Assembly: GCA_015231925.1 (NCBI GenBank)
Contig: JADGAQ010000002.1
Location: forward strand, 4,791-68,790
Direction of reading: 5' to 3'
Length of the DNA: 64,000 nt
Origin: Magnetococcales bacterium
GTDB taxonomy: Bacteria > Pseudomonadota > Magnetococcia > Magnetococcales > JADGAQ01
Shown here: positions 1 to 25,786 of the stretch, piece by piece
Layout: each line of letters begins with the position of its first letter
Numbering within the stretch: position 1 is the first letter of the stretch
Notes under the pieces: model-generated
The model's database searches: none
Told to the model about the DNA's origin: nothing
What the model saw: the letters and a program-made list of their open reading frames with translations, nothing else
Made by a program: the position numbers and the translations under genes

Positions 1-66
1 AAATAAAGTCGGTGGGGTTTCGCCGGCCGGAAGGGGTCGCAAGGGGCCGGTGCGGCTGGGAGGGAC

Positions 67-648
67 TCAAACGGAGGAGGGTTTTGGAGCGAACGGATCG
101 CCCAGGAGACAGACTTCCCGTTTACTCAGCAACCACTGTCGCCACACCTCGCCGGATTCGAGGAAGAAGACGATTTTGCGTCCCCGATGTCCTCCGGTGT
201 CCACCCGCATGGGCTGGAGTTCGACGGTGCTGAGAATCTTCAGAGCCGATTCGACGTTGGCTTTTCCGACACTGAAACGGGATTTGTGGAACGACCTGCC
301 ATGAATCAGCATGTCGGAACCCCCGAAGAGTTTGAGCTGCAACTCCCGGTAGGGCAGACCGCGGTCGGCGCATTCCGTCAACATGTGGGCCACGACGCAA
401 TCCACGTAACGGAAGCAGTTGGCATCCCACCCCCGGCAATGATCCTGCTCCACCAGATGCTCCGCCCGGCAGGTGGGCAGCATGCCGTGACACATCATGC
501 CGGTACGGGTTGGGGCGTGATAGATGGTCAAGGCCACGCAGGAACCCAGAATGGTGGTGACCACCCCGTGATTCTGGCCGATGAAGAACTCCCCCTGTTT
601 GAGATTGACCGCCATGGCCAAGTGGTGCTGGGTAAGTCGGTCCCTCAT
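67..648 (-). CDS. cheD: Chemoreceptor glutamine deamidase CheD
   Basis: 193-aa ORF with CheD-family sequence including the catalytic-Cys motif TILGSCVALTIYH. It lies 23 bp downstream of cheR on the same strand. Confidence 0.85.
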   Translation of the reverse strand: MRDRLTQHHLAMAVNLKQGEFFIGQNHGVVTTILGSCVALTIYHAPTRTGMMCHGMLPTCRAEHLVEQDHCRGWDANCFRYVDCVVAHMLTECADRGLPYRELQLKLFGGSDMLIHGRSFHKSRFSVGKANVESALKILSTVELQPMRVDTGGHRGRKIVFFLESGEVWRQWLLSKREVCLLGDPFAPKPSSV

Positions 649-671
649 GTGGGCAACAGTCCTTTTTCAGA

Positions 672-1550
672 CTACTTTGGCAACTGATAGATGGTGGGGG
701 CGACCTGTTTGACCGGCACGTTGAGATTGTTCAGAGATTCGGAATGACCGATGAAAAGATAACCTCCTGGAATCAGATGACGACATATCTTGTTGACAAT
801 CTGCTCGGTGGTGATGCGGTCGAAATAGATGATGACGTTGCGACAGAAGACCACATCCATGCGCTCTCTCAAGCCGTAATCGGCATCCATGAAATTGAGG
901 CGCTGGAAGCGCACCATCTGCCGCAACTCCGGCCCGATGCGGGCCAGGGGACGCTCCCGGCTTTTGAGCAGGTATTTCTTCTTCAGGGTCATGGGGATGG
1001 GCGCCACCTTTTCCAGTTCGTAGATGGCATCCTTGGCCTTTTTCAAGACCCGGGTGGAGATGTCCGTGGCCAGGATGGAGGCCTGAAAGGAGCCCTGGCT
1101 TTCGCCGAACTCCGCCAGCACCATGGCCAGGGTGTAGGGCTCCTCCCCCGAGGAACAGGCCGCGCTCCAGACATTGAGACGACGCCGTACCCCGGCCCCT
1201 TCCCGAGCGATCAGATCGGGCAGGGCCTCCCGCACCAGGTAGTCGAAATGGGCCGATTCCCGGAAAAAATCGGTCTTGTTGGTGGTGACGATGTCGATGA
1301 AGTGAATCAGCTCGTCCCCGGCCGCACCCGGCGTCAGCACCCAGTCGATGTATTCCGAAAAGGAGTCCATGCCCAGAGTGCGCAACCGCTTCTGAATACG
1401 CGCCGTCAGCATGGTTTTTTTGGCAGGCGGCATTTGAATACCGCACTGCTGATAGATAAACTGGCTGAGCTGATTGAACTTGTGGTCCGGGATGGTGGTT
1501 TCCATGAGACTCGGATCGATCGTGGCGGCTAGGGTGGACGACAGGAGCAT
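672..1550 (-). CDS. cheR: Chemotaxis protein methyltransferase CheR
   Basis: ORF 672..1619. Has the CheR N-terminal helical domain (FNQLSQFIYQQCGI) and the SAM-MTase core (VWSAACSSGEEPYTLAM, VFCRNVIIYFD, GGYLFIGHSES). Start is uncertain: ATG 1550 is preferred; 1505 and 1619 are possible. Confidence 0.85.
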   Translation of the reverse strand: MLLSSTLAATIDPSLMETTIPDHKFNQLSQFIYQQCGIQMPPAKKTMLTARIQKRLRTLGMDSFSEYIDWVLTPGAAGDELIHFIDIVTTNKTDFFRESAHFDYLVREALPDLIAREGAGVRRRLNVWSAACSSGEEPYTLAMVLAEFGESQGSFQASILATDISTRVLKKAKDAIYELEKVAPIPMTLKKKYLLKSRERPLARIGPELRQMVRFQRLNFMDADYGLRERMDVVFCRNVIIYFDRITTEQIVNKICRHLIPGGYLFIGHSESLNNLNVPVKQVAPTIYQLPK

Positions 1551-1664
1551 TGTACCCTGGTTGCAACGCGGACGCTCCCCTTTTTTCACGATCCCCCCTG
1601 GGGAAATCGAGAGAGGCATGCGAGGAAACCGTGATCTTTTCCTTGACCGGGAAGGGAAATTCGA

Positions 1665-1691
1665 GAGAATATGAGAATCTTAGAATATTCT
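1665..1691. promoter_or_regulatory. Three AGAAT half-sites phased 8 bp apart, the last inside the perfect 10-bp palindrome AGAATATTCT
   Basis: gAGAATatgAGAATcttAGAATATTCT in the cheR/dsrA divergent intergenic region. AGAAT starts at 1666, 1674 and 1682. Confidence 0.3.
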
Positions 1692-1855
1692 ATTATGTTG
1701 CGTTGCAAAAAATCCCCGAATCGCAAACAACAAGAAAAGGCTCGGCGACACGCCGGGCACTGCGGGCGATGCAGAAGAAACTGAAGGGTTTGTTCGCCCC
1801 TTTGGTCCGTTTTTGACCTGAATCACTGAATGCCAACGAGGAAAGGAATGAAACA

Positions 1856-3130
1856 ATGAGCGGGCAGGTCACGGAGTTGAAAACGCCGTTGCTGGATCAA
1901 TTGGAATCCGGCGATTGGCCCAGTTTTGTGACGGATTTGAAGGCGTGGTCGAAAGTCAAGCCCCAGGTGGCCCAACTGCTGAACCAGTTGAACGAATCCT
2001 ACGAGAATCGCTGGAACTACTGGACCGGAACCGTGCTGAACGTTCCCGGTTACGGCGGCGGGGTCATCGCCCGTCTCTCCGAGAAGGCGGACAAGTATCC
2101 CGATATCGCCCAGTTCCATACCATCCGCATCATCGAGCCGCCGGGCTGGGTATACAATACCAAGTCCCTGCGCAATCTGGCGGATACCAGCTCCAAGTAC
2201 GGCGCGGGCATCCTGCAGTTGCACGGCATGACCGGCGACGTGCTGTTGCTGGGCTTCGACAACGAGAACACCTACAAGGCCGCGGAAGCCCTGATGAGCG
2301 ACGGCTGGGATCTGGGCGGCTCCGGCGGCGCCCTGCGCACCCTGCAGTGCTGCGTGGGTCAGGCCCGTTGCGAAATGGCCTGCTACGACACCATGCGCAC
2401 CACCAAGTTCCTGACGGATCACTACATCGATTTCCTGCATCGTCCGGAATTCGTCTACAAGTTCAAGTTCAAGCTCTCCGGATGCCCGAACGACTGCGCC
2501 AACGCCATGATGCGCTGCGACATGCCCATCATCGGCACCTGGCGCGGCCCGATGCAGGTCGATCAGGCGGAAGTCAAAGCCTTCATCGAAAAGAAGGGCG
2601 TGGAGTACGTCATCGACAACGTGCTGACCCGCTGCCCGACCCGCTGCATGTCCCTGCGCAACGGCGAAATGGTCATCGAGCACGAGAACTGCGTGCGCTG
2701 CATGCACTGCATCAACGTGATGCACAAGGCGCTGAAGCCGGGCAAGGATCGTGGCGTCACCATCCTCGTGGGCGGCAAGCGCACCCTGAAGATCGGCGAC
2801 ACCATGAGCACCATGATCGTGCCCTTCATGAAGCTGGAGACGGAAGAGGATTACGAGAAGCTGGTCGATTTCGTGGATCGTTGCTGGGAGTTCTGGAACG
2901 ACAACGGCATGGATCACGAGCGTATCGGCGAGTTCATCTATCGCGTCGGTCTGGGCACCTTCCTGGAAGGCATCGGGGAGAAGCCGGACGCCCGCATGGT
3001 GACCCGTCCCCGCACCAGCCCCTACATCAAGTTCGAGGAGCTGGCTCCGCGTCGTTTGGACGGCGAGGAGAAGGGACGCATCACGCCGGTCTGGAATCGC
3101 GAACCGGAATTCACCGAAGCGGCCTCCTGA
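1856..3130 (+). CDS. dsrA: Dissimilatory sulfite reductase alpha subunit DsrA
   Basis: 424 aa. Has the siroheme/[4Fe-4S] Cys clusters (CCVGQARCEMAC; SGCPNDCANA) and the ferredoxin insert (CPTRC ... CVRCMHCINV). RBS aggaaaggaa lies upstream of the ATG. Confidence 0.93.
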   Translation: MSGQVTELKTPLLDQLESGDWPSFVTDLKAWSKVKPQVAQLLNQLNESYENRWNYWTGTVLNVPGYGGGVIARLSEKADKYPDIAQFHTIRIIEPPGWVYNTKSLRNLADTSSKYGAGILQLHGMTGDVLLLGFDNENTYKAAEALMSDGWDLGGSGGALRTLQCCVGQARCEMACYDTMRTTKFLTDHYIDFLHRPEFVYKFKFKLSGCPNDCANAMMRCDMPIIGTWRGPMQVDQAEVKAFIEKKGVEYVIDNVLTRCPTRCMSLRNGEMVIEHENCVRCMHCINVMHKALKPGKDRGVTILVGGKRTLKIGDTMSTMIVPFMKLETEEDYEKLVDFVDRCWEFWNDNGMDHERIGEFIYRVGLGTFLEGIGEKPDARMVTRPRTSPYIKFEELAPRRLDGEEKGRITPVWNREPEFTEAAS

Positions 3131-3205
3131 CACGGACCATGACGCCATCCCGATCTTCGGGATGGATGGAATTCGACCTCTACGTTTCTCCAAAGGAAGC
3201 GCGAC

Positions 3206-4279
3206 ATGAGTGAACAGAAAATGGGTCCCCGCAACCAGGGGGCTCCCGACTATACGCAGCACCTGCATCCCCTGATGACCAAGAACTACGGCAAGTGGTC
3301 CTACCACGAGCGGCTCCGGCCCGGCGTGCTGGTCCATGTCGCCGAGAACGGCGACAAGCTCTTCACGGTGCGGGCCGGTTCCCCCCGTACCATGAGCGCC
3401 GCCACGGTCCACAAAATCTGCGACATCGCCGACAAGTACTGTGACGGTTTCCTGCGTTTCACCACCCGCACCAACGTGGAATTCCTCCTGGGCAAGGAGT
3501 CGGATATCCCCGCCCTGATCGCGGACGTGGAAAAGACCCTGGGCTTCCCCATCGGCGGCACCGGTCCTTCGATCTCCAACATCGCCCACACCCAGGGTTG
3601 GCTGCACTGCAACCTGCCCGGCACCGACGCCGCCGGCGCGGTCAAGGCCATGATGGACGAACTGATCGACGAGTTCACCCACGAGCGCCTGCCCAACCGC
3701 GTGCGCCTCTCCACCTCCTGCTGCCAGATCAACTGCGCCAGCCATGCGGACATCTCCGTGATCGTCCAGCATCACCATCCGCCTCGCATCAACCACAACA
3801 ACATGCAGATCTGCGAACTGCCGAAAGTGGTGGCCATCTGCCCGGCGGCGGCCATTCGTCCGGCCGTGGTCAACGGCAAGGAGTCGGTGGAAGTGGTGGA
3901 TGAGAAGTGCATGTACTGCGGCGCCTGCCACGGCCAGTGCCCCAGCATGGAAATCCGCGACGCCGAAACCGACTCCCTCTCCATCTGGATCGGCGGCAAG
4001 ACGGCCAACACCCGCGGCGGCCCCACCTTCATGAAGCTCGCGGTCTGGGGTCTGCCCAACAGACCCCCCCGCTGGCCCGAAGTGGGCACTGCGGTGCGCA
4101 CCATCATCGAGGCCTACAAGTCCTCCGCCAAACCCTGGGAACGGGTCGGCGAATGGGTCGAGCGCATCGGCTGGCAGCGTTTCTTCGAGATGACCGGCTT
4201 CCCCTTCACCAAGTATCACATTGATGACAGCCCGGAAGCCTTCACCACCTTCAACCGCTCCACCCACGTTCGTTTGTAG
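3206..4279 (+). CDS. dsrB: Dissimilatory sulfite reductase beta subunit DsrB
   Basis: 357 aa. Motifs HTQGWLHCN and CCQINCASH, plus ferredoxin insert CMYCGACHGQCP. Starts 75 bp after dsrA. Confidence 0.93.
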   Translation: MSEQKMGPRNQGAPDYTQHLHPLMTKNYGKWSYHERLRPGVLVHVAENGDKLFTVRAGSPRTMSAATVHKICDIADKYCDGFLRFTTRTNVEFLLGKESDIPALIADVEKTLGFPIGGTGPSISNIAHTQGWLHCNLPGTDAAGAVKAMMDELIDEFTHERLPNRVRLSTSCCQINCASHADISVIVQHHHPPRINHNNMQICELPKVVAICPAAAIRPAVVNGKESVEVVDEKCMYCGACHGQCPSMEIRDAETDSLSIWIGGKTANTRGGPTFMKLAVWGLPNRPPRWPEVGTAVRTIIEAYKSSAKPWERVGEWVERIGWQRFFEMTGFPFTKYHIDDSPEAFTTFNRSTHVRL

Positions 4280-4285
4280 CGGGTG

Positions 4286-4364
4286 TATCCCCGGGTTGGC
4301 CGGGGATATCGACATCCCTGGCCAACTTCGGATCAAGCGCCGCGAGGAGTTCTCTTCGCGGCGC
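4286..4364 (+). other. Two GC-rich hairpins in the dsrB-dsrL spacer
   Basis: TATCCCCGG-gttgg-CCGGGGATA (4286-4308) and AGCGCCGCGA-ggagttctct-TCGCGGCGCT (4335-4364). Neither is followed by a T-run. Confidence 0.5.
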
Positions 4365-4497
4365 TGTCAAATCCCCCGGCCCGAGGCACGGTGCGGAACC
4401 CTTCCGCATCGATGCCGGGGCTCGGGGATTTTCCCCGGAATCGTCACGTCCGGCGCGTCAGCGGTCGGCGTATGCAATTGTTCTAGGAGGGTTGTGC

Positions 4498-6369
4498 ATG
4501 GTTGCCCCGTCCATTTTAAGTACGCAAACCCGTGAAGAGGTTGAGTCCCACCTGAAGAACTTCGTTCCCGAAGAGATCGTGGTTCGCAACGGCAGCAGTT
4601 GGAAGTGCCCGACCTATGTGCAGCGCATGCCTCCGTGCCGGGACAGTTGCCCCAGCAGCGAAGACATTCGCGGCTATCTGACCACCATCGCCCAGGCCGA
4701 CATGCTGCGCAAGTCGTCGGAAGAGGTGCTGGATCAGGCCTGGGAGATTCTCACCGACAAGAATCCCCTGCCCGCAGTTCACGGGCGTATTTGCCCCCAT
4801 CCCTGCGAGACCGGCTGCAACCGTCAGCATCTGCCGGACGGCTCCGTGGCCATCAACAACATGGAGCGCTTCGTCGGCGATCATGGCCTGCGTCGCAAAC
4901 TGAAGTTCAAGAAGATCACCGACAAGGTTCAGAGCAAAAAGATCGCCGTGATCGGTTCCGGTCCCAGCGGTCTCTCCTGCGCCTATCAACTGGCGCGTCG
5001 CGGTTATCCCGTGACCATTTTCGAGGCTTTCGAAAAGGCGGGCGGCATGCTGCGTTACGGCATCCCCTCCTACCGTTTGCCGGAGGATGTGCTGGATGGC
5101 GAGATTCAGGCCATTCTCGATCTGGGGGTGGAGCTGCGCTGCAACACCCGGGTCGGTCGGGACATCTCCTTCGAGCAACTGCGCAAGGAATATGACGCCG
5201 TCTATATCGCCGCCGGGGCTCACAAGGGTGTGGCTCTGGGTGTCGAGGGGGAGAATTCCGCCAATGTCTTCACCGGCGCCAGCTTCCTCAACCGGGTCAA
5301 TACCGGCGCCAAAGTGGAGATCGGACGCCGTGTGGTGGTCATCGGTGGTGGTGACAGCGCCGTGGACGCCGCCCGTGTTTCCCTGCGTCTGAACAACGCC
5401 CTGGAAGCCGCCGAGGCCAAGCATGATCCCGACGCCATCGCCGATGCGCAGCATGCCATCGAGCAGGAAGCCGAGGGAGTCGATACCGTGGCCGACAAGA
5501 CCATGTTCGACGCCGCTCGGGCTTCCAAGCGCAGCTCCCGCTACTCCGAGGTGACCATTCTCTACCGGCGCACCCGGGAAGAGATGCCGGCCATCACCAA
5601 GGACGTGGTGGAGGCCGAACACGAAGGCATTCGCTTCGAATTCCTGGCCGCTCCGGTGGGTTTCGTCACCGAGGGGGGGCGCGCCACCGCCATCAAGTGC
5701 ATTCGCATGGAACTTGGTCCCAAAGACAAGTCCGGGCGTCGTTCCCCGGTTCCCATTGCCGGTTCCGAGTTCACCCTGCCGGTGGATACCGTCATCGTGG
5801 GTATCGGGCAGCAGCCCGAGTTGGTCGAGGGCATGGAGGAGCTGGCCAATAAATGGGGTTGGGTTGATGCCAACGCCACCCATTGCACCAAGGTTGCCGG
5901 TATTTTCGCCGGCGGCGACGTGCTGGGGCTGGGTATTTCCACCCGTTCCGTGGGTCACGGACGCATCGCGGCCCGAGCCATCAATGCCTATTTGACCGGC
6001 GAGAACTATCAGTTGCCTTATCGGGGCAAGCCGGTTCGCATCGAGGAGATGCGGCCCTCCTATTACAAGCCGTTGGCGCGTAACGAGGAGGAGCATATCG
6101 ACCTGGAGGTGGCGTCCAAGGACTTTTCGGAGATTTTCAAGACCCTGTCCACCTCTCAGGCGTTGGCCGAAGCCAAACGGTGCATGAGCTGCGGCTTGTG
6201 TTTCGTTTGTGACCAGTGCCGGATTTACTGCCCGCGGGAGGCGATTCATCGCGATCTCAAGCGTCCCAAGGGCCGTATCATGTTTACCGACTACACCCGC
6301 TGCAACGGGTGTCACGTCTGTCAGCAGGCCTGTCCCTGCGGGTACATTCAGATGGGCATGGGTTTCTGA
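4498..6369 (+). CDS. dsrL: DsrL-type NAD(P)H:acceptor oxidoreductase (GltD-like iron-sulfur flavoprotein)
   Basis: N-terminal Cys cluster, two dinucleotide folds (IAVIGSGPSGLSCAY; VVVIGGGDSAVDAA) and a C-terminal 2x[4Fe-4S] ferredoxin (CMSCGLCFVCDQCRIYCP; CNGCHVCQQACP). ATG 4498 lies 7 nt after AGGAGG; the track start at 4492 is TTG. Confidence 0.85.
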   Translation: MVAPSILSTQTREEVESHLKNFVPEEIVVRNGSSWKCPTYVQRMPPCRDSCPSSEDIRGYLTTIAQADMLRKSSEEVLDQAWEILTDKNPLPAVHGRICPHPCETGCNRQHLPDGSVAINNMERFVGDHGLRRKLKFKKITDKVQSKKIAVIGSGPSGLSCAYQLARRGYPVTIFEAFEKAGGMLRYGIPSYRLPEDVLDGEIQAILDLGVELRCNTRVGRDISFEQLRKEYDAVYIAAGAHKGVALGVEGENSANVFTGASFLNRVNTGAKVEIGRRVVVIGGGDSAVDAARVSLRLNNALEAAEAKHDPDAIADAQHAIEQEAEGVDTVADKTMFDAARASKRSSRYSEVTILYRRTREEMPAITKDVVEAEHEGIRFEFLAAPVGFVTEGGRATAIKCIRMELGPKDKSGRRSPVPIAGSEFTLPVDTVIVGIGQQPELVEGMEELANKWGWVDANATHCTKVAGIFAGGDVLGLGISTRSVGHGRIAARAINAYLTGENYQLPYRGKPVRIEEMRPSYYKPLARNEEEHIDLEVASKDFSEIFKTLSTSQALAEAKRCMSCGLCFVCDQCRIYCPREAIHRDLKRPKGRIMFTDYTRCNGCHVCQQACPCGYIQMGMGF

Positions 6370-6374
6370 TTCAA

Positions 6375-6424
6375 GGTCCGTGGTGGGGAACCGGAGGGCT
6401 CAGGCCCTCCGGTGGACCGTTTTT
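6375..6424 (+). terminator. Intrinsic terminator after dsrL
   Basis: GGTCC...CCGGAGGGC-tcag-GCCCTCCGG...GGACC followed by GTTTTT. Confidence 0.6.
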
Positions 6425-6666
6425 CGTCGTATCCCCCTCTCCGCTTTCCTGTGCGACTCTCTTTCCCCCCTACGGGGATTCGGGGGCTCCGACGGTTCCG
6501 GCAGCACCCTGGGACCCCCTCTTCCGTCTTCAGCCGCTCTTCTTTCAAGCTTGTCCTGCAAAAACACGGGGTTCGGGGGGAAAACATCCCCTCTGAACCC
6601 CGTGTTCCCGAATCGTTTCGCTTGCCTTCGGGTCAATAACATGGCTTCAGAGAGCGCAACCGTCTC

Positions 6667-6786
6667 ATTTGCAGATAGGAATTATTTATATCATTAGTTT
6701 TGCATCTATAAGCACAATAAATTAGCAAGCTATAATATATTTCCCTGTCAAACAATTATATATAATAATTATACATCATTATTCAC
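6667..6786. promoter_or_regulatory. Extremely AT-rich tract upstream of mucR
   Basis: About 120 bp of attatttatatcattag...ctataatatatt...attatatataataattatacatcattatt in an otherwise GC-rich window. Contains a perfect TATAAT at 6731-6736. Confidence 0.4.
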
Positions 6787-6996
6787 CGGTCCCGCCAGCA
6801 CCTTCCAAACAGCCTAAATAAATTCAAAAAAGACCACATCACCACTTGCCGATTACATCATCCTTCGCTACAAAGAGAATCAACCGGAACGGAGCCGTCA
6901 CGCTCCATGACAAGAAGAGAGTCGGTTCCTCTTCATAAACTATTTGCTTTGTCCAATTCCCATATCCATATGCCCTTTTCCCGGAGTCTCTCCAAC

Positions 6997-7464
6997 ATGT
7001 CTTTGGAGCTCATCAAACGCACCGCAGAACTGGTTACCGCCTTCGTCACCCGTAACGAAATGGCCGCCAAGGAGATCAAACCCCTGCTGGAAGAGGTGTA
7101 CAATACCCTTTCCGGCTTTGCCGCCGAAACAAGCAGGCAAACATCCGGTAAAATACCCGCAGGCGCCATCCTGAAAACGCATGAAATCCCCTCTTCCGCC
7201 CCCACCAATGTTCCCGTCTTCGACGATGCCGCAGACAAGGAAACCGTGAGATGCCTGGTCTGCTCCAAAAAATTCCGCACCCTTAAGAGACATCTCATTG
7301 CAAAACACGGAATAACCCAGGATCAATATCGTAAACAATACGGTCTTAAAGCTAAGGATTTAATCGCTCCAGGATACTCCGCAATGCGGGCCAATATGGC
7401 CAAAGAACATAATTTAGGGGGTAATTTGCGTCATTCAAAGAGTGATCGTGTGTCAGAAGAGTAA
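6997..7464 (+). CDS. mucR: MucR/Ros family zinc-finger transcriptional regulator
   Basis: C-terminal Ros/MucR signature VRCLVCSKKFRTLKRHLIAKHGITQDQYRKQYGL. The N-terminus MSLELIKRTAELVTAFV is typical of the family. ATG 6997 (155 aa) is preferred over the track start at 6907. Confidence 0.85.
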   Translation: MSLELIKRTAELVTAFVTRNEMAAKEIKPLLEEVYNTLSGFAAETSRQTSGKIPAGAILKTHEIPSSAPTNVPVFDDAADKETVRCLVCSKKFRTLKRHLIAKHGITQDQYRKQYGLKAKDLIAPGYSAMRANMAKEHNLGGNLRHSKSDRVSEE

Positions 7465-7471
7465 TTCCATT

Positions 7472-7659
7472 GTAACTATTCAGACCCCTGAACGGTGCAG
7501 CATGATTGTGTCAACGGCGAAAGGAAAAGTCCCAGGGGTGCCCCCTGGATCCCATGGGGTCGGAAGTCAACAGCAAACGGAAGAGTCCCAGGGCGCTGCC
7601 CTGGACCCGTCGAGGGGGAGGGATAATCCCCGCCGCCCCCCATATATCCGAACAGTTAA
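7472..7659. repeat. GC-rich MITE-like element (family D), copy with a duplicated inner module
   Basis: Termini GTAACTATTCAGA ... CCGAACAGTTAA. Inner modules GTCCCAGGG-n-CCCTGGA and GGGATAATCCCC. Related to the copies at 11224, 36302, 37330, 42251, 42488 and 62345. Confidence 0.7.
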
Positions 7660-7830
7660 TATTTTTTCATTTCAAACTACTAAAGAAATTTAAATTAACA
7701 AATTAAAACAAGAGCGGACAATTATCGGAAACATTGAACTTAAACTGTCGCCCCGGTAAAGCCGAAGGTTTGTCAGCCTTCACTTTACTTTATTAGATTT
7801 CATATATCTCAAATCTTAGCGGAGTGGAAG

Positions 7831-8547
7831 ATGACTAACAGGAAGATATGGACTCTTTTATCCTTGTTGACCGTGCTATTCGGTGTATCCGGATGTGCAA
7901 CGCTTCTTCCTTTACCGGATGAAATGGCCAGCGTCTTGTTGGACGAGAAGGTCGAAAAGGTATTGGATAGATTTTGCCCCATCTCCGCCGACCCGAAGAA
8001 CGTAACCTTCGATGACCGGGTTATTCGTTCCTACGCCGTCTTGGCAGCTGTCGTTGGACACGGATATCGGACGCTTGAGAATTACGGCTTCTCGAAAGAG
8101 GACTCAAAGTTCTTTGCTGAAAAGATCGTGAGCAAAATAAAACCATCGCTTGAGCTGATCAAAAAGATGGATGATGAAAAATCAGCTTACTTTTTTCTTC
8201 CACACGGCGATGTCGTTGTGGAATTAAGCAAAGTGGCCTTGGCATCGATCGAACCCTCCATAAAGATCGGCAAGAAACCGGCCGATCTATTGCTCTCTTC
8301 AAATCGGGAGCAAGCGGCAGGATTGCTCATTCAAATCCTGGAGGACAAGCTCTATTTCGACGCCTTCCACAATAGTTGCTACTGCTATGCAAACACTGGA
8401 AAAAAAGCCGAGACAATACCCATGACCTGCCCCACAACAGCGACGGACATGAAGGCCAAATTCAAAGAGCGCATCACGGATCGCTGCGAGAAGCTAAAAG
8501 GTTTCTTTGATAATAATAGTACTAATTATGAGTGCGAGGTAAAGTAA
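7831..8547 (+). CDS. Cys-rich lipoprotein of unknown function
   Basis: Signal peptide with lipobox (LLTVLFGVSGC). No family recognised. Visibly lower GC than neighbouring genes. Ends 31 bp upstream of the lipase gene. Confidence 0.6.
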   Translation: MTNRKIWTLLSLLTVLFGVSGCATLLPLPDEMASVLLDEKVEKVLDRFCPISADPKNVTFDDRVIRSYAVLAAVVGHGYRTLENYGFSKEDSKFFAEKIVSKIKPSLELIKKMDDEKSAYFFLPHGDVVVELSKVALASIEPSIKIGKKPADLLLSSNREQAAGLLIQILEDKLYFDAFHNSCYCYANTGKKAETIPMTCPTTATDMKAKFKERITDRCEKLKGFFDNNSTNYECEVK

Positions 8548-8578
8548 ATCATCCATACTCTAAATACAGGGGGAGTAT

Positions 8579-11194
8579 ATGACCTGGGGATATGCCATCG
8601 AAGAGGAACAGAAAAAGCTCCGTAGCGAGGGCTACCTCTCTGGTGAACCGATAGGACTGGCTCTTTCGGGCGGAGGCATTCGCAGTGCCACCTTCAACCT
8701 GGGCCTGATTCAGGCACTGGCCAAAAAGAGGGTACTCACCTCTTTTTCTTACCTCTCCACCGTTTCGGGCGGCGGCTATATCGGCTCCTGGTTGATGACC
8801 TGGGCCAAGCAGTCGCCCAAGGGCATGGAGACCGTTCAGACCGCGCTGTCTTCAGCCAATGCCGAATCTGGAACCGAAGCAAAACCCGTAGCTTGGCTGA
8901 GGACCTACAGCAACTACCTCACCCCACGCAAAGGTTTGTTGACCCTGGATACTCTGACCGGAATCACCTACCAGTTTCGCAACGTTTTCCTGTCAAGTCT
9001 GGTGTTGACTCTGTTCGTTTCAGGCGTTTTATCCATCCTGGCTGGACTGGTCAATGGCGTAAAATATCTTCCGACTTCGTCCTTCCAAATTATCTTCCTG
9101 TTTTTTGGCTCGGTAGCAGCCTTTCTTTTTGGCAGAGCCCTGGCCCGATTGATCGACGACAACACCAACTCCGATTCCATCTCAACAAAACCAACCGCTT
9201 TCGGAATGGTCTTGGCGATACTGGCGTTCGGCTTCTGTAAGGATTCGACCCCCCTCTCCCCTCTGCATTTCGGTTTATCCGTCGGCACGGTTTACTTCCT
9301 CGGCGTAAGTATCGGTTCTTGGATGTTCCTGTCCAGAAAGAGCCTATGGGATCACTTGTTTCTTCGCTCTCTTTTTGCCGGATTTCCCATTTTCGCCATC
9401 GCCGGTTTCCTCCTCCCCGTCCTCCTGCAGCAAGGATCCTGGAACTCCTCCTGGGAACTGGCGGGATTTGGGGTGCCACTCGCCTGCCTGCTGTTCGCCC
9501 TGGCGGCCTCCGTTCACCTCGGTGTGATTGGTCGCCTTCTGCCCGACGAGGCCTATTTCTGGATCAGCCGCCTCGCGGGACGGCTGCTGCAATACTCCCT
9601 GATCTGGAGCCTGCCCTTCCTGATATTTCTGCTTGTACTACCGCTGATCGACTGGACGGAACACTTTGCCCTCGCCGGCGGCACCAGTGTCGTCTACGCC
9701 TTTCTGGTCCGATGGCTGGCAGCGGGCTCCAGCACCGGCGGAGAAGGCGCCAAGGCTGGAAAAGGCTGGAAAAATCAGTTGATCGAAGGCCTTGTCGCCA
9801 CCGCTCCCTATCTGTTGATGCTGCTGCTGGTTGGTTTCATGGCCTTGGGGGTGCGTTACGGTTTTGTTGAAAGGTTCGCGGACACCAAAGCCTCCGCCAA
9901 CACGCCCCCCTCCTGCACCCCGTGCCAGGTGGTCGTGGTAAACACCGGCGCCCAACCCGACTGCCAGACACAAAAATGCCTCGTCAGCGAGGGAAAACAT
10001 TCCCCCTACTATGGTGAAATGTATCAGGAAAATCTTAAACTGCTGGAAAAAATTTCGCCCTGGTGGGGCATAGCCATCGGGTTGGTTTTGGCTGAAATAT
10101 CGCTATTATTGTCGCACCTGATAGATGCCAATCTTTTTTCGCTGCACGGCTTCTACCGCAACCGCTTGACCAACGCCTATCTTGGCGCCAGCAATCCGAA
10201 TCGTCGTCACCCGCCTTCCGAAACCGGCGTCGACCCTGGGGACTCCCCCAAACTGGCCGATTTGGTAGGCATCCGCCCCTATTTTCTGATCAACACCACC
10301 TTGAATCTGACGGGCCGGAAAAACGACCTGGCTTGGCAAAATCGTCAGGGAGCCGCCTTTCTCTTTTCCCCGCTCTATTGCGGTTTCAGCGCAGGCGTCA
10401 CCAATGCATACAAACCCACAAAGGACTACGGCAAGGACGCCTCTCTACCTCTCAAGCTCGACTTGGCCATGACCATCTCCGGAGCCGCCGCCAGCCCTCT
10501 GGAGGGATTTCATACCAAACCGGGTCTGTCGATGCTTCTGGCCCTCCTGGGCGCACGCCTGGGATGGTGGTTGACGAATCCGGCAAAAGATGAATGGAAT
10601 AAAACTCCACCAAAAGCCACCCTCCTGACAACTCTCTACAAGGAAATGACGGCTCAAGCCGATGCCTCTCAACCGCTAGTCAACCTGAGCGACGGCGGCC
10701 ACTTCGAGAATCTCGGCATTTACGAACTGGTGCGACGACGTTGTACCGTCATCCTGGCCAGCGATGCCGGAGCGGATCCTGACTACGTTTTCGACGACTT
10801 GGGCAACGCTATCCACAAGATTCGTACCGATTTCGGCGTCGAAATCGACATCGATCCACTGCCCATCCGGCCTGCCGCATCATCAAATTCCACTTCGGGA
10901 ACCGTAGTGGGCAGTGACGAAAATTTTGTGGAAGGAACAATCCGTTATAGTACAAGTCCCCTGCCCTGGTTCAAGAACCTGAAAGACGGGAAACTGATCT
11001 ATCTCAAGGCCTCGCTTCCGAGGCCGTTCGAGAAAAAGGCTGCCGATGTGCTGTACTACGCAGCCACCCATCCCTTGTTTCCGCAGGAACCCACCTCCGA
11101 CCAATGGTTCAGTGAGGAGCAGTTCGAGGCCTATCGGAAACTGGGAGAATTGCTTGGGGAGTCTCTCCCCGACAACATGTTCAGTCCCTCATAG
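8579..11194 (+). CDS. Membrane-embedded cPLA2/patatin-like phospholipase
   Basis: Oxyanion motif LSGGGIRSA and nucleophile motif YLSTVSGGGYIGSW at the N-terminus. The Asp-dyad motif LSDGGHFENLGIYELVRRRCTVILASDAG lies about 630 aa later. About 9-10 hydrophobic helices sit between them (aa ~130-430). Confidence 0.7.
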   Translation: MTWGYAIEEEQKKLRSEGYLSGEPIGLALSGGGIRSATFNLGLIQALAKKRVLTSFSYLSTVSGGGYIGSWLMTWAKQSPKGMETVQTALSSANAESGTEAKPVAWLRTYSNYLTPRKGLLTLDTLTGITYQFRNVFLSSLVLTLFVSGVLSILAGLVNGVKYLPTSSFQIIFLFFGSVAAFLFGRALARLIDDNTNSDSISTKPTAFGMVLAILAFGFCKDSTPLSPLHFGLSVGTVYFLGVSIGSWMFLSRKSLWDHLFLRSLFAGFPIFAIAGFLLPVLLQQGSWNSSWELAGFGVPLACLLFALAASVHLGVIGRLLPDEAYFWISRLAGRLLQYSLIWSLPFLIFLLVLPLIDWTEHFALAGGTSVVYAFLVRWLAAGSSTGGEGAKAGKGWKNQLIEGLVATAPYLLMLLLVGFMALGVRYGFVERFADTKASANTPPSCTPCQVVVVNTGAQPDCQTQKCLVSEGKHSPYYGEMYQENLKLLEKISPWWGIAIGLVLAEISLLLSHLIDANLFSLHGFYRNRLTNAYLGASNPNRRHPPSETGVDPGDSPKLADLVGIRPYFLINTTLNLTGRKNDLAWQNRQGAAFLFSPLYCGFSAGVTNAYKPTKDYGKDASLPLKLDLAMTISGAAASPLEGFHTKPGLSMLLALLGARLGWWLTNPAKDEWNKTPPKATLLTTLYKEMTAQADASQPLVNLSDGGHFENLGIYELVRRRCTVILASDAGADPDYVFDDLGNAIHKIRTDFGVEIDIDPLPIRPAASSNSTSGTVVGSDENFVEGTIRYSTSPLPWFKNLKDGKLIYLKASLPRPFEKKAADVLYYAATHPLFPQEPTSDQWFSEEQFEAYRKLGELLGESLPDNMFSPS

Positions 11195-11223
11195 CGCGGC
11201 ATAGCCGCAACCAAACTGCAATG

Positions 11224-11452
11224 GTAACTGTTCAGGATCCTGCACAGCGGGACATGACCGTATCAACAGCGAAAGAATAAGTCCCAGGGGTACCCCCTGG
11301 ACCCCGGGAGGTCATAACGTCAACGGCAAAAGGAAGAGTCCCAGGGCGCTGTCCTGGATCCGTCGGGGGGGATAATCCCCCCCGAACCCCCGTATATCTG
11401 AATAGTTACTTCCTTTTTGATATTTAAAGGATAACATATTGAAAGTTAAAGG
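11224..11452. repeat. Family-D MITE-like element fused to a partial TIR60 unit
   Basis: GTAACTGTTCAGG ... CCCCGTATATCTGAATAGTTAC followed by ttcctttttgatatttaaaggataacatattgaaagttaaagg. Confidence 0.7.
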
Positions 11453-11473
11453 ATTCTAATCTCTATCTCCGGA

Positions 11474-14308
11474 TCACGGCTTCACCAGCAGGGGCTGCAA
11501 ATACCGCCCCGTCCAAGACTCCGCACAAGCCACCACCTGCTCCGGCGGCCCCGCCACCAGAATACGCCCTCCGCCTTCGCCGCCTTCCGGTCCCAGGTCG
11601 ATGACCCAGTCACAGCTTTTGACCACATCCAGATTGTGTTCGATCACCACCACCGTATTGCCCGCCCCCACCAACTGCTGCAACACCTCCAGCAGCTTGC
11701 GGATGTCATCGAAGTGCAGTCCGGTGGTCGGTTCGTCCAGGATGTAAAAGGTGCGCCCCGTGGCCCGCTTGCTCAACTCCTTGGCAATCTTGACCCGCTG
11801 CGCCTCCCCGCCCGAAAGGGTGGTGGCCGCCTGACCCAGACGCATATACCCCAACCCCACCTCCATGAGGGTGGCCAGCTTGCCACGAATCGCCGGAACC
11901 GCCTGAAAGAAGGCCAACCCCTCCTCCACCGTCAGATCCAGCACCTCGGCAATGGAACGATCCCGATAGCGGATTTCCAGGGTTTCGCGATTGTAACGAC
12001 TGCCGTGGCACTGGTCGCACTGCACGAAAAGATCGGGCAGAAAATGCATTTCGATCTTGATCAGACCGTCGCCGGCACAGGCTTCGCAGCGCCCCCCCTT
12101 GACGTTGAAGCTGAAACGCCCCGGCTGGTATCCCCTGGCCCGCGCCTCCGGCACCCCGGCGAAGAGATCCCGAATCGGCGTGAACAAACCGGTATAGGTG
12201 GCGGGATTGGAACGCGGCGTGCGCCCGATGGGGGACTGGTCGATGTGGATGATCTTGTCCAGATGCTCCAGCCCGGAAAGGGATTCGAAACGCCCGCCGG
12301 GCAGTCGCGCGTTATTGAGACGCTGGGCCAGGGCCGGATAGAGGGTATCGAGAATCAGACTCGACTTGCCCGAACCGGAGACACCGGTAATGCAGGTGAA
12401 CAGCCCCAGGGGCACCGCCAGATCGACGCCGCGCAAATTGTGGGTGGTCACTTTGTCCAAACGCAGCCAGCGTTCGTCGCCCGGAGGCGAACGTCGCCCG
12501 CCGGGCGCGGCAATGGTGAGCTGCCCGCTGAGATAACGACCTGTCAGCGAGTCGGGATTGGCGGTGATCTCCGCAGGTGTTCCCGTGGCCACCACCCGAC
12601 CCCCGTGTTCACCCGGTCCGGGCCCCATATCCACCACGAAATCGGAGGTGCGCATGGCCTCTTCGTCGTGTTCCACCACCACCACGGTATTGCCCAGATC
12701 GCGCAGTCGCAGCAGAGTGGCCAACAGACGGGAGTTGTCCCGCTGGTGCAGCCCGATGCTGGGCTCGTCCAGAATGTAGAGTACCCCCGTCAGCCCGGAA
12801 CCGATCTGATTGGCCAGCCGGATGCGTTGTCCCTCCCCGCCCGAAAGGGTGCCGGCGGCCCGATCCAGCGACAGATAATCGAGTCCCACGGCGATGAGGA
12901 AATCGAGTCGCTCCCGCACCTCCTTGAGAATGCGTTCCGCCACCACCGTCTCCCGCGGGGTCAGGCTCAACTGGCCCATCATGGCTCGCGACTCCCGCAG
13001 GGAGAGGGCGGAGAGTTCGGCGATATTGAGACCGCCCACCCGCACCGCCAGGGCTTCGGGTCGCAGGCGGGCGCCGCCGCAGCGGGGACAGGGCGAGGTG
13101 TTGCGATAGGGTTGCAGCTCCTCGCGCACCTCGTCGGAATCGGTTTCCAGATAGCGTTTCTCCAGATGGGCGATCACCCCCTCCCAGAGGCGGAAGGAGC
13201 GAAAACGGCGTCGACCCCGTACATGAAAGCGCACCTTCTCGGACCCGCTGCCGAAGAGCATCAACTGGCGGTGTTCCTCGGGCAACTGGTTCCAGGGGGT
13301 ATGGATGTCGATGCCGAAGTGTTCGGCCACGGTATAGAGCATCTCCTGCCCGGCGCGGGCGGTGGGCTTGGCCCAGGGGGCCACGGCGCCGTCGCGGATG
13401 GTCAGCTCCGCGATGGGCACGATCAGCTCCGGGTCGAAGAACTCGCGTGCCCCCAGACCGTCGCAGGCGGGGCAGGCGCCGGCGGGATTGTTGAAGGAGA
13501 AGAGTCGGGGCTCGATCTCCGGGTAGGAGATGTTACAGTGGATGCAGGCATGGCGTTCCGAAAAGAGCTGCTGCCGGGGGGGGGTCTCATCGAGCAGGGA
13601 GACGGCGGCCAACCCCTCCCCCAGGCGCAACGCCGTCTCCAGGGAGTCGGCCAGACGGCTTTCCAGGCCGGAACGCACCACGATGCGGTCCACCACCACC
13701 TCGATGGTGTGGGCGGTATTGCGATCCAGGGGGGGCATCTGGTCGATTTCGTGTTGCACGCCGTCCACCACCACCCGGGTGAAGCCTTGTTGCTGCAGAT
13801 CGGCCAGCTCCTTGCGGTGTTCCCCTTTGCGGCCCCGCACCAGCGGCGCCAGCAACAGCAGGCGGGAGCGTTCCGGAAGCCCCAGGATGGCATCGACCAT
13901 CTGGCTGATGGTTTGGCATTCGATGGGACGTTGACAGCTGGGGCAGTGGGGTCGACCGGCGCGGGCGTAGAGCAGGCGCAGATAGTCGTGGATTTCGGTG
14001 ACGGTGCCCACGGTGGAGCGGGGATTGCGGCTGGTGCTTTTCTGCTCGATGGAGATGGAGGGCGAGAGGCCTTCGATGGAATCGACATCGGGTTTGCCCT
14101 GCAGACTGAGGAACTGCCGGGCGTAGGCGGAGAGGGATTCCACGTAGCGGCGCTGGCCCTCGGCGTAGAGGGTATCGAAGGCCAGGGAGCTTTTTCCGGA
14201 TCCGGAAACGCCGGTGATGACGGTCAGGGTGTGACGGGGAATCTCCAGATGGATATTCTGGAGATTGTGTTCCCGGGCGCCGCGGATGATGATGTGGGTA
14301 TTGGACAT
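11474..14308 (-). CDS. uvrA: Excinuclease ABC subunit A
   Basis: UvrA throughout: [33 protein letters not shown], two ABC signature/Walker sets and zinc-finger Cys pairs. ATG at 14308 is preferred over the 38-codon upstream extension. Confidence 0.95.
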
Positions 14309-15455: not shown

Positions 15456-15460
15456 TATAA

Positions 15461-21693: not shown

Positions 21694-21703
21694 GGAACAG
21701 ACC

Positions 21704-23322: not shown

Positions 23323-23335
23323 CGGGAGGGAAAAG

Positions 23336-25446: not shown

Positions 25447-25471
25447 TGAATATCGACGAGGATGAGGCGTT

Positions 25472-25679: not shown

Positions 25680-25721
25680 TGGCAGGCAGGGGATTTTTCA
25701 GAAAAATTATTTTTTTATCTT

Positions 25722-25779: not shown

Positions 25780-25786
25780 TTTTCCT

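What the first reader, a model, noticed from the sequence alone, without database searches (positions are those of the whole stretch)
1856..6369. Self-contained dsrA-dsrB-dsrL operon with no other dsr genes nearby
dsrAB is followed, after a hairpin-rich spacer, by dsrL and then a strong terminator. No dsrC, dsrEFH or dsrMKJOP is present in the window; the flanks are chemotaxis genes and an AT-rich islet. DsrL is the NAD(P)H-linked partner associated with sulfur-oxidising (reverse-acting) DsrAB, although a second DsrL type also occurs in other sulfur metabolisms. A minimal ABL unit separated from its sulfur-relay and membrane-complex partners is worth checking for type, direction of operation and origin.
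Basis: partly seen in the sequence, partly recalled or inferred. Interest (0 to 1): 0.55.

Follow-up and report, generated by a model that had tools for sequence, protein, structure and literature searches.

The report
Ordinary Magnetococcales dsrABL sulfur-oxidation operon
The window really carries a stand-alone dsrA-dsrB-dsrL operon, but this three-gene unit, with an NADP-type DsrL and the other dsr genes elsewhere in the genome, is the normal, already published layout in magnetotactic cocci (Magnetococcales), so it is ordinary.

Summary
dsrA (1856-3130), dsrB (3206-4279) and dsrL (4498-6369) lie on the + strand. A strongly structured 218-nt spacer separates dsrB from dsrL, and a hairpin plus U-run follows dsrL. 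No dsrC, dsrEFH, dsrMK, dsrJOP or dsrT homologue occurs anywhere in the 64 kb.

The sequence comes from a Magnetococcales MAG. The same isolated trio, in different flanks, occurs in every Magnetococcales genome I could read. Two papers describe it for strains UR-1 and FCR-1, where dsrC, dsrEFH-JOP and dsrMK sit at other loci.

DsrL is type 2. It has the YRR motif, a short linker and a retained Cys cluster ligand, and it groups (95% bootstrap) with the published DsrL-2 of Nitrospirae RBG_19FT_COMBO_42_15. DsrA, DsrB and DsrL give congruent trees. Magnetococcales form one clade, next to Arenicellales and then Nitrospinota/Nitrospirota. This is the "oxidative DsrAB + DsrL-2 of Magnetococcia" group of Diao et al. 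2023.

Most likely function: sulfite-forming oxidation of stored sulfur with NADP+ as electron acceptor, dependent on DsrC and other partners encoded elsewhere.

Verdict: real, but already known. Low interest.

The parts
67..648 (-). cheD (left flank, unrelated to dsr)
   Evidence: PF03975 CheD, E 1.2e-18. The same gene is next to the operon in the sister MAG.
672..1505 (-). cheR (left flank, divergent from dsrA). The longest ORF runs to 1619; the sister MAG aa.
   Evidence: PF01739 + PF03705; gene call in L001.
1643..1670 (+). Sigma-70-like promoter match in the cheR-dsrA intergenic region (weak, unverified)
   Evidence: TTGACC-16-GAGAAT, 9 of 12. Only 1 site was found against 1.6 expected in shuffles.
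1856..3130 (+). dsrA, dissimilatory sulfite reductase alpha subunit (424 aa)
   Evidence: TIGR02064 484.5 bits. 100% identical to MBF0307982.1 of a Magnetococcales MAG. Has C166-x5-C172, C210-x3-C214 and the ferredoxin cysteines C260/C264/C279/C282/C285. AGGAA lies 8 nt upstream of the ATG.
3131..3205 (+). dsrA-dsrB spacer with one stable hairpin
   Evidence: -26.3 kcal/mol, z = -2.5.
3206..4279 (+). dsrB, beta subunit (357 aa)
   Evidence: TIGR02066 462.7 bits. Has C135, C172-C173-x3-C177 and C235-x2-C238-x2-C241-x3-C245-P. 380 bits to Desulfovibrio DsrB chains in the PDB.
4280..4497 (+). Highly structured dsrB-dsrL spacer (three or four long GC hairpins) ending in the dsrL ribosome-binding site
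   Evidence: MFE -126.7 kcal/mol, z = -6.3. No Rfam family. The 28-nt central hairpin is unique in the window. Identical in the sister MAG, so it gives no covariation information.
4498..6369 (+). dsrL, type 2 (623 aa): NAD(P)H:acceptor oxidoreductase iron-sulfur flavoprotein
   Evidence: Domain order. YRR, Cys ligand, short linker and insertion. 95% bootstrap clade with the DsrL-2 reference L017.
5395..5544 (+). About 50-residue insertion (DsrL residues 300-349) between the GxGxxA helix and the YRR strand of the NAD(P)-binding domain
   Evidence: Unaligned to all NfnB/GltD-like PDB chains. The segment is 62 aa here, against 12 in plain DsrL-2 and 43 in DsrL-1A. Alignment. Low-confidence helix plus disordered segment in the AlphaFold model.
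5563..5571 (+). Codons for Y356-R357-R358, the NADP(H)-specificity motif that defines DsrL-2
   Evidence: ILYRRTREEMPA. Invariant in 48 homologues. Meaning of the motif from PMC7596348.
6375..6424 (+). Intrinsic-terminator-like hairpin followed by UUUUU, closing the operon
   Evidence: -30.1 kcal/mol, z = -2.9. Sequence.
6640..6900 (.). AT-rich intergenic stretch upstream of mucR (right flank, not part of the operon)
   Evidence: Sequence. GC profile.
6997..7464 (+). MucR/Ros-family regulator (right flank). Low GC (0.48, GC3 0.52).
   Evidence: PF05443, E 3.5e-28. 155-aa call in the sister MAG. Composition.

Best explanation
This is the lineage-typical dsrABL operon of a magnetotactic coccus (order Magnetococcales).

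Shown here:
- dsrA and dsrB encode an intact DsrAB-type sulfite reductase.
- dsrL encodes a type-2 DsrL with the YRR motif, a short linker and a retained Cys ligand.
- The three genes form one unit, bounded by a promoter region and a terminator-like hairpin.
- That unit is conserved and phylogenetically congruent across Magnetococcales.
- The other dsr genes are not in the window.

Inferred:
- The enzyme works in the oxidative direction. DsrAB oxidises DsrC-bound sulfane sulfur, derived from stored sulfur, to sulfite.
- The electrons pass through the Fe-S clusters and FAD of DsrL to NADP+. This yields NADPH, which would be useful for an autotroph that fixes CO2 by the reverse TCA cycle.
- DsrC, DsrEFH, DsrMK and DsrJOP are supplied from other loci, as in relatives.
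- The hairpin-rich dsrB-dsrL spacer probably stabilises or partly terminates the dsrAB message, so that DsrAB is made in excess over DsrL.
For: Identity of the genes.

Organism: DsrA and DsrL are 100% identical to MBF0307982.1 and MBF0307984.1, annotated as Magnetococcales bacterium.

Same isolated trio elsewhere:
- The sister MAG has the same flanks.
- Strain FCR-1 and MAG GCA_015232395 have different flanks.
- L007 and L009 also carry the trio alone. L008 has dsrN-dsrEFH-dsrJO 7.5 kb upstream on the other strand.
- By contrast, all 46-55%-identical proteobacterial loci carry dsrABEFHCMKLJOP.

DsrL type:
- YRR, S-W-K-C, and an 86-aa linker against 133-148 aa in DsrL-1A.
- 60% identity and a 95% clade with Nitrospirae RBG_19FT_COMBO_42_15, against 38% identity to DsrL-1A.
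- Criteria from PMC7596348.

Trees:
- The Magnetococcales + Arenicellales clade has 96-100% support.
- Magnetococcales are monophyletic at 89% in DsrA+B+L.
- DsrA, DsrB and DsrL topologies are congruent.

Direction:
- PMC10591310 places 'DsrL-2 of Magnetococcia' with lineages of verified or indicated oxidative metabolism, always directly downstream of oxidative dsrAB.
- FCR-1 has this type as its only reported dsrABL (DsrA 72% identical). It oxidises sulfide, stores sulfur and does not reduce sulfate.
- DsrE is present in dozens of Magnetococcales MAGs.
- The DsrL next to a reductive-type DsrAB in L016 has Arg at the ligand position, whereas the window has Cys.

Composition: dsrABL GC3 is 0.76-0.87 against a window mean of 0.72. 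There are no tRNA genes and no mobility genes nearby.
Against: - The direction of operation is inferred, not shown. My NJ trees give three well-supported DsrA groups (reductive, canonical oxidative, and this clade), and the deep order is unresolved under paralogue rooting.
- Window DsrA is 48-52% identical to canonical oxidative DsrA and 41-48% identical to reductive DsrA, so it is only slightly closer to the oxidative set.
- DsrL-2 enzymes with YRR are also the type used with reductive DsrAB. Only the reductive-side model enzyme, from Desulfurella amilsii, has been characterised biochemically.
- Whether this MAG itself has dsrC, dsrEFH, dsrMK or dsrJOP could not be checked.
- The role proposed for the spacer rests on folding energy alone.
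Confidence: 0.8

Rival explanations
1. The operon works reductively or in both directions. NADPH is oxidised by DsrL-2 and the electrons drive DsrAB-catalysed sulfite reduction, for sulfite or thiosulfate respiration, sulfur disproportionation or sulfite detoxification under anoxia. A second, DsrL-1B-linked dsrABL elsewhere in the genome would then do the oxidising.
For: - YRR/NADP(H)-type DsrL is the type found with reductive DsrAB. The only DsrL-2 characterised is from a thiosulfate/sulfur reducer.
- UR-1 has two dsrABL copies, and its authors state that the type of the second copy needs confirmation.
- This DsrAB clade sits with the 'transitional' Nitrospinota, Nitrospirota and Actinomycetota sequences.
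- The A. vinosum rDsrABL-1A complex catalyses NADH-dependent sulfite reduction in vitro.
Against: - FCR-1 is reported with only this type, oxidises sulfide and does not reduce sulfate.
- The Cys ligand is retained, as in DsrL found with oxidative DsrA, rather than Arg.
- No dsrD-like ORF was found in the window.
- dsrEFH lies 7.5 kb from this type of operon in L008.
- Diao et al. classify the Magnetococcia DsrL-2 as an indicator of oxidation.
Confidence: 0.14
2. The trio is a recently acquired, laterally transferred cassette. On this reading it is a mobile minimal dsr module dropped between chemotaxis genes and an AT-rich islet, rather than a vertically inherited operon.
For: - Flanks differ between Magnetococcales genomes.
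- The right flank (mucR and the 238-aa ORF) is low in GC and bracketed by REP-like repeats.
- Arenicellales and other Gammaproteobacteria carry 76%-identical copies.
- In the DsrA-only tree the window groups with those copies at 90%.
- Diao et al. list Magnetococcia among taxa with multiple dsrAB transfers.
Against: - Magnetococcales are monophyletic in DsrB, DsrA+B and DsrA+B+L trees (72%, 66% and 89%), with the gammaproteobacterial copies as sister group.
- dsrABL GC and GC3 equal or exceed the window mean.
- No integrase, transposase or tRNA gene lies next to the operon.
- The nearest relative outside the same population is only 78% identical.
- An ancient transfer at the base of the order is not excluded, but that is not a recent cassette.
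Confidence: 0.05
3. The trio is a decaying remnant of a once complete dsr cluster and is no longer functional.
For: No partner genes occur within 64 kb.
Against: - All cofactor-binding cysteine motifs are intact in the three proteins.
- The ORFs are full length and 60-78% conserved across many genomes.
- GC3 is high.
- Ribosome-binding sites and a terminator-like hairpin are present.
Confidence: 0.01

Closest known systems
dsrABL loci of Magnetococcales strains 'Ca. Magnetaquicoccus inordinatus' UR-1 and FCR-1 (PMC6783814, PMC11950176)
   Same: Same gene order dsrA-dsrB-dsrL, standing apart from dsrC, dsrEFH-JOP and dsrMK. FCR-1 DsrA is 72% and DsrL 69% identical to the window proteins, with the same YRR motif, the same Cys ligand and a 64-aa insertion segment.
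   Different: The flanking genes differ: CheD/CheR and MucR here, against an aminotransferase and a peroxidase in FCR-1. The dsrB-dsrL spacer is longer and more structured here (218 nt, z -6.3, against 132 nt, z -2.3). The window lineage branches first among the Magnetococcales sampled.
DsrL-2 found with oxidative-type DsrAB: subclusters DsrL-2A/2B of Diao et al. [quoted passage not shown] 2020
   Same: YRR motif, Cys at the NfnB-Cys42 position, 86-aa linker, and a gene directly downstream of dsrAB in the same operon. The clade has 95% bootstrap support.
   Different: [quoted passage not shown] In the window nothing follows dsrL.
Canonical proteobacterial rDsr cluster dsrABEFHCMKLJOP with DsrL-1A (Allochromatium type; here Thiomargarita L048, Azospirillum halopraeferens L066, and others)
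   Same: Same enzyme family and the same presumed role (oxidation of stored sulfur to sulfite). DsrL carries an insertion at the same site of the NAD(P)-binding domain, and the second half of the insertion is faintly similar (T-x-x-D-x-A-x-x-x-x-R).
   Different: - DsrA is only 48-52% and DsrL 38% identical.
- dsrL follows dsrK rather than dsrB.
- DsrL-1A has SLF/SRQ-type residues instead of YRR, and a linker 47-62 aa longer.
- All partner genes are contiguous.
Reductive dsrAB(D) of sulfate/sulfite reducers (PDB 2V4J, 2XSJ, 3OR1, 3MM5) and DsrL-2C
   Same: Same fold family, same cofactor motifs, and the YRR motif in DsrL-2C.
   Different: - DsrA is 41-48% identical.
- The window protein lacks the insertions seen in the Desulfovibrio-type ferredoxin domain.
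- The DsrL beside the reductive-type DsrAB in L016 has Arg, not Cys, at the cluster-ligand position.
- No dsrD-like ORF was found in the window.

Membership tests
DsrAB dissimilatory sulfite reductase | Both subunits pass the curated equivalog models | tested here: met
   TIGR02064 484.5 bits (cut-off 392.85) and TIGR02066 462.7 bits (cut-off 341.5).
DsrAB dissimilatory sulfite reductase | Cysteine motifs for the sirohaem-coupled [4Fe-4S] cluster and the inserted ferredoxin domain in both subunits | tested here: met
   DsrA has C166-x5-C172, C210-x3-C214 and C279-x2-C282-x2-C285. DsrB has C135, C172/C173-x3-C177 and C235-x2-C238-x2-C241-x3-C245-P.
Oxidative-type (reverse) DsrAB | Phylogenetic placement in the oxidative bacterial-type clade | tested here: inconclusive
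   The window groups at 100% with sequences the literature assigns to the oxidative type (Nitrospirae RBG_19FT_COMBO_42_15, Gaiellales SURF_19). However, NJ gives three groups whose deep order is unresolved under paralogue rooting.
Oxidative-type (reverse) DsrAB | No dsrD next to dsrAB | tested here: met
   The dsrB-dsrL gap is 218 nt. The only overlapping ORF (4221-4535) has no Pfam hit, and no ORF in the window hits a DsrD model. Caveat: my candidate DsrD from L016 could not be validated as a reference.
Oxidative-type (reverse) DsrAB | dsrEFH and dsrC in the same genome | not testable with these tools
   Both are absent from the window. The rest of the MAG could not be retrieved. They are present in relatives: L008, UR-1, and many Magnetococcales MAGs.
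DsrL (criteria of Loeffler et al. 2020) | Domain order: N-terminal two-cluster ferredoxin domain, FAD domain with embedded NAD(P) domain, linker, C-terminal two-[4Fe-4S] ferredoxin | tested here: met
   Fer4_20 at 46-133 and Pyr_redox_2 at 150-484. C-terminal C-x2-C-x2-C-x3-C-P motifs occur twice. Criteria quoted.
DsrL (criteria of Loeffler et al. 2020) | Encoded in an organism with dsrAB and not linked to 2-oxoacid:ferredoxin oxidoreductase genes | tested here: met
   The gene lies directly downstream of dsrB, and no POR/VOR genes are in the window.
DsrL-2 | YRR motif in the NAD(P)-binding domain | tested here: met
   ILY356-R357-R358-TREEMPA.
DsrL-2 | Clusters with published DsrL-2 sequences rather than DsrL-1 | tested here: met
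   95% bootstrap clade with L017 at 60% identity, against 38-39% identity to DsrL-1A. No DsrL-1B reference (Chlorobaculum, M. marinus) was available.
DsrL-2 subgroup found with oxidative DsrA (DsrL-2A/2B of Diao et al. 2023) | Cys, not Arg, at the position of NfnB Cys42, and a gene directly downstream of oxidative dsrAB in the same operon | tested here: met
   S-W-K-C in the window, against S-H-L-R in the DsrL beside the reductive-type DsrAB of L016. Operon layout. Assignment to 2A versus 2B is not testable without the authors' tree.
DsrL-1A | [quoted passage not shown] | tested here: inconclusive
   An insertion is present at the same site, but it is about 50 aa long and only faintly similar in its second half.
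DsrL-1A | Long linker (about 30 aa or more extra) and no YRR | tested here: not met
   The linker is 86 aa against 133-148 aa, and YRR is present.
Canonical contiguous dsr cluster (dsrABEFHCMKLJOP) | Partner genes adjacent to dsrAB | tested here: not met
   tblastn with ten reference proteins finds none of them in the 64 kb.

The most novel reading that the evidence does not exclude
The DsrL of this Magnetococcales/Arenicellales clade could be an undescribed structural intermediate between DsrL-2 and DsrL-1A. It keeps the NADP-type YRR motif and the short linker. It has also gained a 50-56-residue insertion at exactly the site where DsrL-1A carries its 32-residue insertion. Shorter versions (30-38 aa) occur in some Nitrospinota and Nitrospirota, and none in others. 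If the insertions are homologous, this would trace stepwise how the oxidative NAD+-reducing DsrL-1A arose from a DsrL-2. Because FCR-1 is cultured, it would also give the first experimentally tractable organism in which sulfur oxidation by rDsrAB feeds NADP+ directly.
Probability: 0.25. Interest if true: 0.4.

Novelty: already known. Interest (0 to 1): 0.15.

Why it matters
It matters little as a discovery. The stand-alone dsrABL layout of magnetotactic cocci and their DsrL-2 are in the literature (PMC6783814, PMC11950176, PMC10591310).

It is a useful annotation point. The public record calls this DsrL only 'FAD-dependent oxidoreductase', and the YRR motif predicts NADP(H) rather than NAD(H) coupling.

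The clade-specific insertion in the nucleotide-binding domain, together with a cultured relative (FCR-1) that carries the same enzyme type, offers a modest opening. It would allow a test of whether oxidative DsrAB can reduce NADP+ in vivo.

Tried and rejected
- **Retrieving the rest of the 78-kb source contig or the MAG.** Exact-protein look-ups with DsrA, P0001, DsrB and CheD returned only the 8.3-kb contig of a sister MAG. The single genome-contig scan did not return the source genome.
- **Finding this MAG's own DsrE through accession numbers.** The 90% cluster has 82 members, only 15 are listed, and none falls near MBF0307982. The result is inconclusive.
- **Paralogue (DsrB) rooting of the DsrA tree to decide oxidative versus reductive.** Deep nodes have 6-20% support, so I rejected this as a test.
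- **Bootstrapping with Biopython's own calculator.** It timed out, and I replaced it with a numpy NJ.
- **Using the 81-aa ORF between dsrB and dsrL of L016 as a DsrD reference.** It has no Pfam or PDB support, so I did not use it.
- **Consensus terminator scan.** It missed the hairpin after dsrL because of the internal loop, so I folded the region directly instead.
- **Rfam on 1-12000.** It returned only two sub-threshold chance hits and nothing in the spacer. No tRNA genes were found.
- **Asking whether the spacer hairpins belong to the window's REP-like repeat families.** They do not: the central hairpin is unique.
- **PADLOC on ten unassigned ORFs, including the two downstream of mucR.** No hits.
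- **AlphaFold model of DsrL.** The insertion is low confidence (pLDDT below 50 for residues 319-348), so I attempted no structural inference or fold search.

Full report
**What is there**

The + strand carries three consecutive genes.
- ORF 1856-3130 passes the curated dsrA equivalog model (TIGR02064, 484.5 bits, cut-off 392.85).
- ORF 3206-4279 passes the dsrB model (TIGR02066, 462.7 bits, cut-off 341.5).
- The third ORF has an N-terminal Fer4_20 domain, an FAD/NAD(P) Rossmann body and a C-terminal ferredoxin. That is the DsrL architecture defined by Loeffler et al. 2020 (PMC7596348).
- Its real start is the ATG at 4498, 7 nt after AGGAGG, giving 623 aa, as called in a sister MAG.

All cofactor cysteine motifs of DsrA, DsrB and DsrL are intact.

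The 218-nt dsrB-dsrL spacer is exceptionally structured: -126.7 kcal/mol, z = -6.3, and none of 200 shuffles folds as well. After dsrL, a 10-bp GC stem nested in a 5-bp outer stem is followed by UUUUU.

The left flank is cheR/cheD on the other strand. The right flank is an AT-rich stretch followed by a MucR/Ros gene.

**Nothing else of the Dsr system is in the window**

Pfam scans of the non-overlapping ORF set found no DsrC, DsrE/F, DsrH, NrfD-type DsrP or DsrM.

I took DsrE, F, H, C, M, K, L, J, O and P from a canonical Thiomargarita cluster, and DsrT, M, K, J, O and P from Nitrospirae RBG_19FT_COMBO_42_15. Pfam matches support E, F, H, C, M, K, O and P; DsrJ had no Pfam hit and DsrT hit only RsbRD_N, so those two are assigned by their place in the cluster. 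I then ran them by tblastn against the window. Only dsrA, dsrB and dsrL were hit.

One limit remains: about 14 kb of the 78,001-bp source contig lies outside the window and could not be fetched.

**Origin**

DsrA and DsrL are identical to MBF0307982.1 and MBF0307984.1 of a Magnetococcales MAG. A second MAG of the same population (GCA_015229045.1) has the identical locus with hemerythrin-cheD-cheR on one side and mucR on the other.

**Is the isolated trio unusual? No.**

I mapped dsr genes on 84 loci, using the reference proteins as queries.
- Every locus whose DsrA is 46-55% identical to the window's, all from Alpha-, Beta- and Gammaproteobacteria, carries the classical dsrABEFHCMKLJOP cluster.
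- Every locus in the 61-78% band has dsrA-dsrB-dsrL contiguous.
- In Magnetococcales the trio stands alone within +/-10 kb. This holds for strain FCR-1, GCA_015232395, nNGHbin2 and nWRX3bin10.
- HCHbin5 has dsrN-dsrEFH-dsrJO 7.5 kb upstream on the other strand.
- Arenicellales add dsrC. Nitrospinota continue with dsrC-MK. Nitrospirota continue with dsrT-MK(JOP).

The literature says the same.
- UR-1 has dsrABL (two copies), a single dsrC and a dsrFEHJOP cluster (PMC6783814).
- The cultured strain FCR-1 has dsrABL, dsrMK and dsrJOP at three separate loci (PMC11950176).

**Type of DsrL**

Loeffler et al. define three types.
- DsrL-2 has a YRR motif, which confers NADP(H) specificity.
- Cys at the NfnB-Cys42 ligand position is kept in DsrL-1 and in DsrL-2 found with oxidative DsrA. 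It is Arg in DsrL-2 found with reductive DsrA.

The window protein reads ILY-R-R-TREEMPA, S-W-K-C, and has an 86-aa linker against 133-148 aa in DsrL-1A. It falls in a 95%-bootstrap clade with Nitrospirae RBG_19FT_COMBO_42_15, a published DsrL-2 paired with oxidative DsrA. Identity is 60% to that reference and 38% to DsrL-1A.

The control behaves as expected. In the Thermoleophilia locus L016, the DsrL next to the DsrAB copy that clusters (100%) with Desulfovibrio and Archaeoglobus structures has Arg at the ligand position.

The window DsrL is therefore a DsrL-2 of the subgroup linked to oxidative DsrAB. This is what Diao et al. 2023 call DsrL-2A/2B, and they explicitly list 'DsrL-2 of Magnetococcia' there (PMC10591310).

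**Type and history of DsrAB**

- NJ trees give a 96-100% clade of Magnetococcales plus Arenicellales/Gammaproteobacteria.
- That clade is nested in a 100% group with Nitrospinota, Nitrospirota and Actinomycetota sequences.
- The group is separate from canonical oxidative DsrA (95%) and from reductive DsrA (100%).
- The deep order is unresolved with a DsrB outgroup.
- Identities are only slightly higher to the oxidative set (48-52%) than to the reductive set (41-48%).
- My own test of 'oxidative type' is therefore inconclusive. The assignment rests on co-clustering with sequences that the literature assigns to that type.

DsrA, DsrB and DsrL give congruent topologies. In the concatenated tree, Magnetococcales are monophyletic (89%) and the window lineage branches first.

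dsrABL composition is normal or codon-biased upwards: GC3 is 0.76-0.87 against a window mean of 0.72. There are no tRNA or mobility genes beside it.

This fits vertical descent within the order. It does not exclude an ancient transfer, which Diao et al. suggest for Magnetococcia.

**Mechanism**

Shown:
- An intact DsrAB and a YRR-type DsrL are encoded as one unit.

Inferred:
- The unit performs the sulfite-forming step of stored-sulfur oxidation, with electrons leaving through DsrL to NADP+.
- It depends on DsrC, DsrEFH and DsrMK(JOP) encoded elsewhere.

Support for the oxidative direction:
- FCR-1 is reported with only this dsrABL type, oxidises sulfide, stores sulfur and does not reduce sulfate.
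- DsrEFH is widespread in the order.
- The Cys ligand is retained.
- No dsrD-like ORF was found.

A reductive or bidirectional role remains possible, at about 0.14.

The structured spacer may stabilise a dsrAB transcript or attenuate dsrL expression. Long spacers in two relatives are also structured (z = -3.7 and -2.3), while the short ones are not. This is conjecture.

**The one feature I could not find described**

Relative to NfnB-like structures, DsrL residues 300-349 are an insertion between the GxGxxA helix and the YRR strand. The segment length varies across groups:

| Group | Segment length (aa) |
|---|---|
| Magnetococcales / Arenicellales | 62-68 |
| Some Nitrospinota / Nitrospirota | 42-50 |
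| Plain DsrL-2 | 12 |
| DsrL-1A | 43 |

The insertion is at the same site as in DsrL-1A. Its second half faintly resembles the DsrL-1A insertion. AlphaFold models it with low confidence. Neither of the two papers that mention both Magnetococcus/Magnetococcia and DsrL-2 describes it: Diao et al. do not discuss such an insertion or the YRR motif, and Loeffler et al. attribute the insertion to DsrL-1A only.

**Verdict**

This is a real, correctly read locus, and it is the ordinary, already published arrangement for this lineage. Interest is low.

Noticed in passing
window 18775-27527: A complete type III-A CRISPR-Cas locus: cas10 with an HD domain, csm2, three RAMP genes and cas6, spanning 18775-25446. 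It is followed by an array of about 20 repeats (CCTTAAGTCATCGCCCCGCTYGATAGGGGATTGAAAC) spaced 72-80 nt apart, from 26029 to 27527.
   Followed up: partly
window 25716, 28362, 30383, 30781, 36088, 36458, 37262, 37410, 58625-58798, 58961, 62251, 62445, 63141: An AT-rich intergenic repeat family of about 70-97 nt (core GTCAAAGGATAGAACATTTCCTTTTTTTGATACTTAAAAGATAACATATTGAAAGTCAAA) occurs in both orientations, at least 13 times, often flanking genes on both sides. It could be a MITE-like element or a shared regulatory element; its nature is unknown.
   Followed up: no
window 7472-7641, 11224-11400, 15385-15462, 37344-37397, 42251-42379, 42500-42615, 47006-47041, 48171-48248, 55141-55216: GC-rich REP-like palindromic repeats (GGGGGGGATAATCCCCCCC and GTCAACGGCGAAAGGAAAAGTCCCAGGGCGCTGCCCTGGA) sit at many gene ends. 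Two copies, 76% identical over 88 nt, bracket the low-GC segment 7.5-11.3 kb. That segment holds two ORFs (238 and 871 aa) with no Pfam, NCBIfam or PADLOC match.
   Followed up: partly
window 30843-33461, 33688-35778, 55308-57560; L001 1-327: Hemerythrin domains are fused to signalling proteins three times in the window: cNMP-binding + metallo-beta-lactamase + hemerythrin; cNMP + PAS + adenylate cyclase + hemerythrin; and MCP + hemerythrin. A stand-alone hemerythrin lies just left of cheD in the sister contig.
   Followed up: no
window 47645-47712 and 48081-48182: There is a pentanucleotide tandem array (TGAGG x 13.6) and a 12-nt tandem array (ACGGCAGCAGAC x 8.5). They lie in or next to ORFs 47718-48278 and 48248-49504, which have no family match.
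   Followed up: no
L026, L037, L054, L061, L074 (related loci): Several proteobacterial DsrL proteins have the full DsrL-1A architecture (43-aa insertion segment, 133-aa linker) but carry YRR instead of SLF/SRQ. In L054 and L061 such a copy sits in tandem with an SLF copy (dsrL1-dsrL2). YRR is therefore not exclusive to the DsrL-2 branch, and these clusters may use both NAD+ and NADP+.
   Followed up: partly
L016 1810-11500 (Thermoleophilia B_ACT_02): One contig carries two dsrABL sets in tandem. The first is a reductive-type DsrAB with an Arg-ligand DsrL. The second is a DsrAB of the window's clade, with a Cys-ligand DsrL followed by dsrEFH. An 81-aa ORF between the first dsrB and dsrL looks DsrD-like by eye but has no Pfam or PDB support.
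   Followed up: partly
window 27553-28193: A HicB-family antitoxin gene (27819-28193) lies directly after the CRISPR array, preceded by an 87-aa ORF that may be its HicA partner.
   Followed up: no
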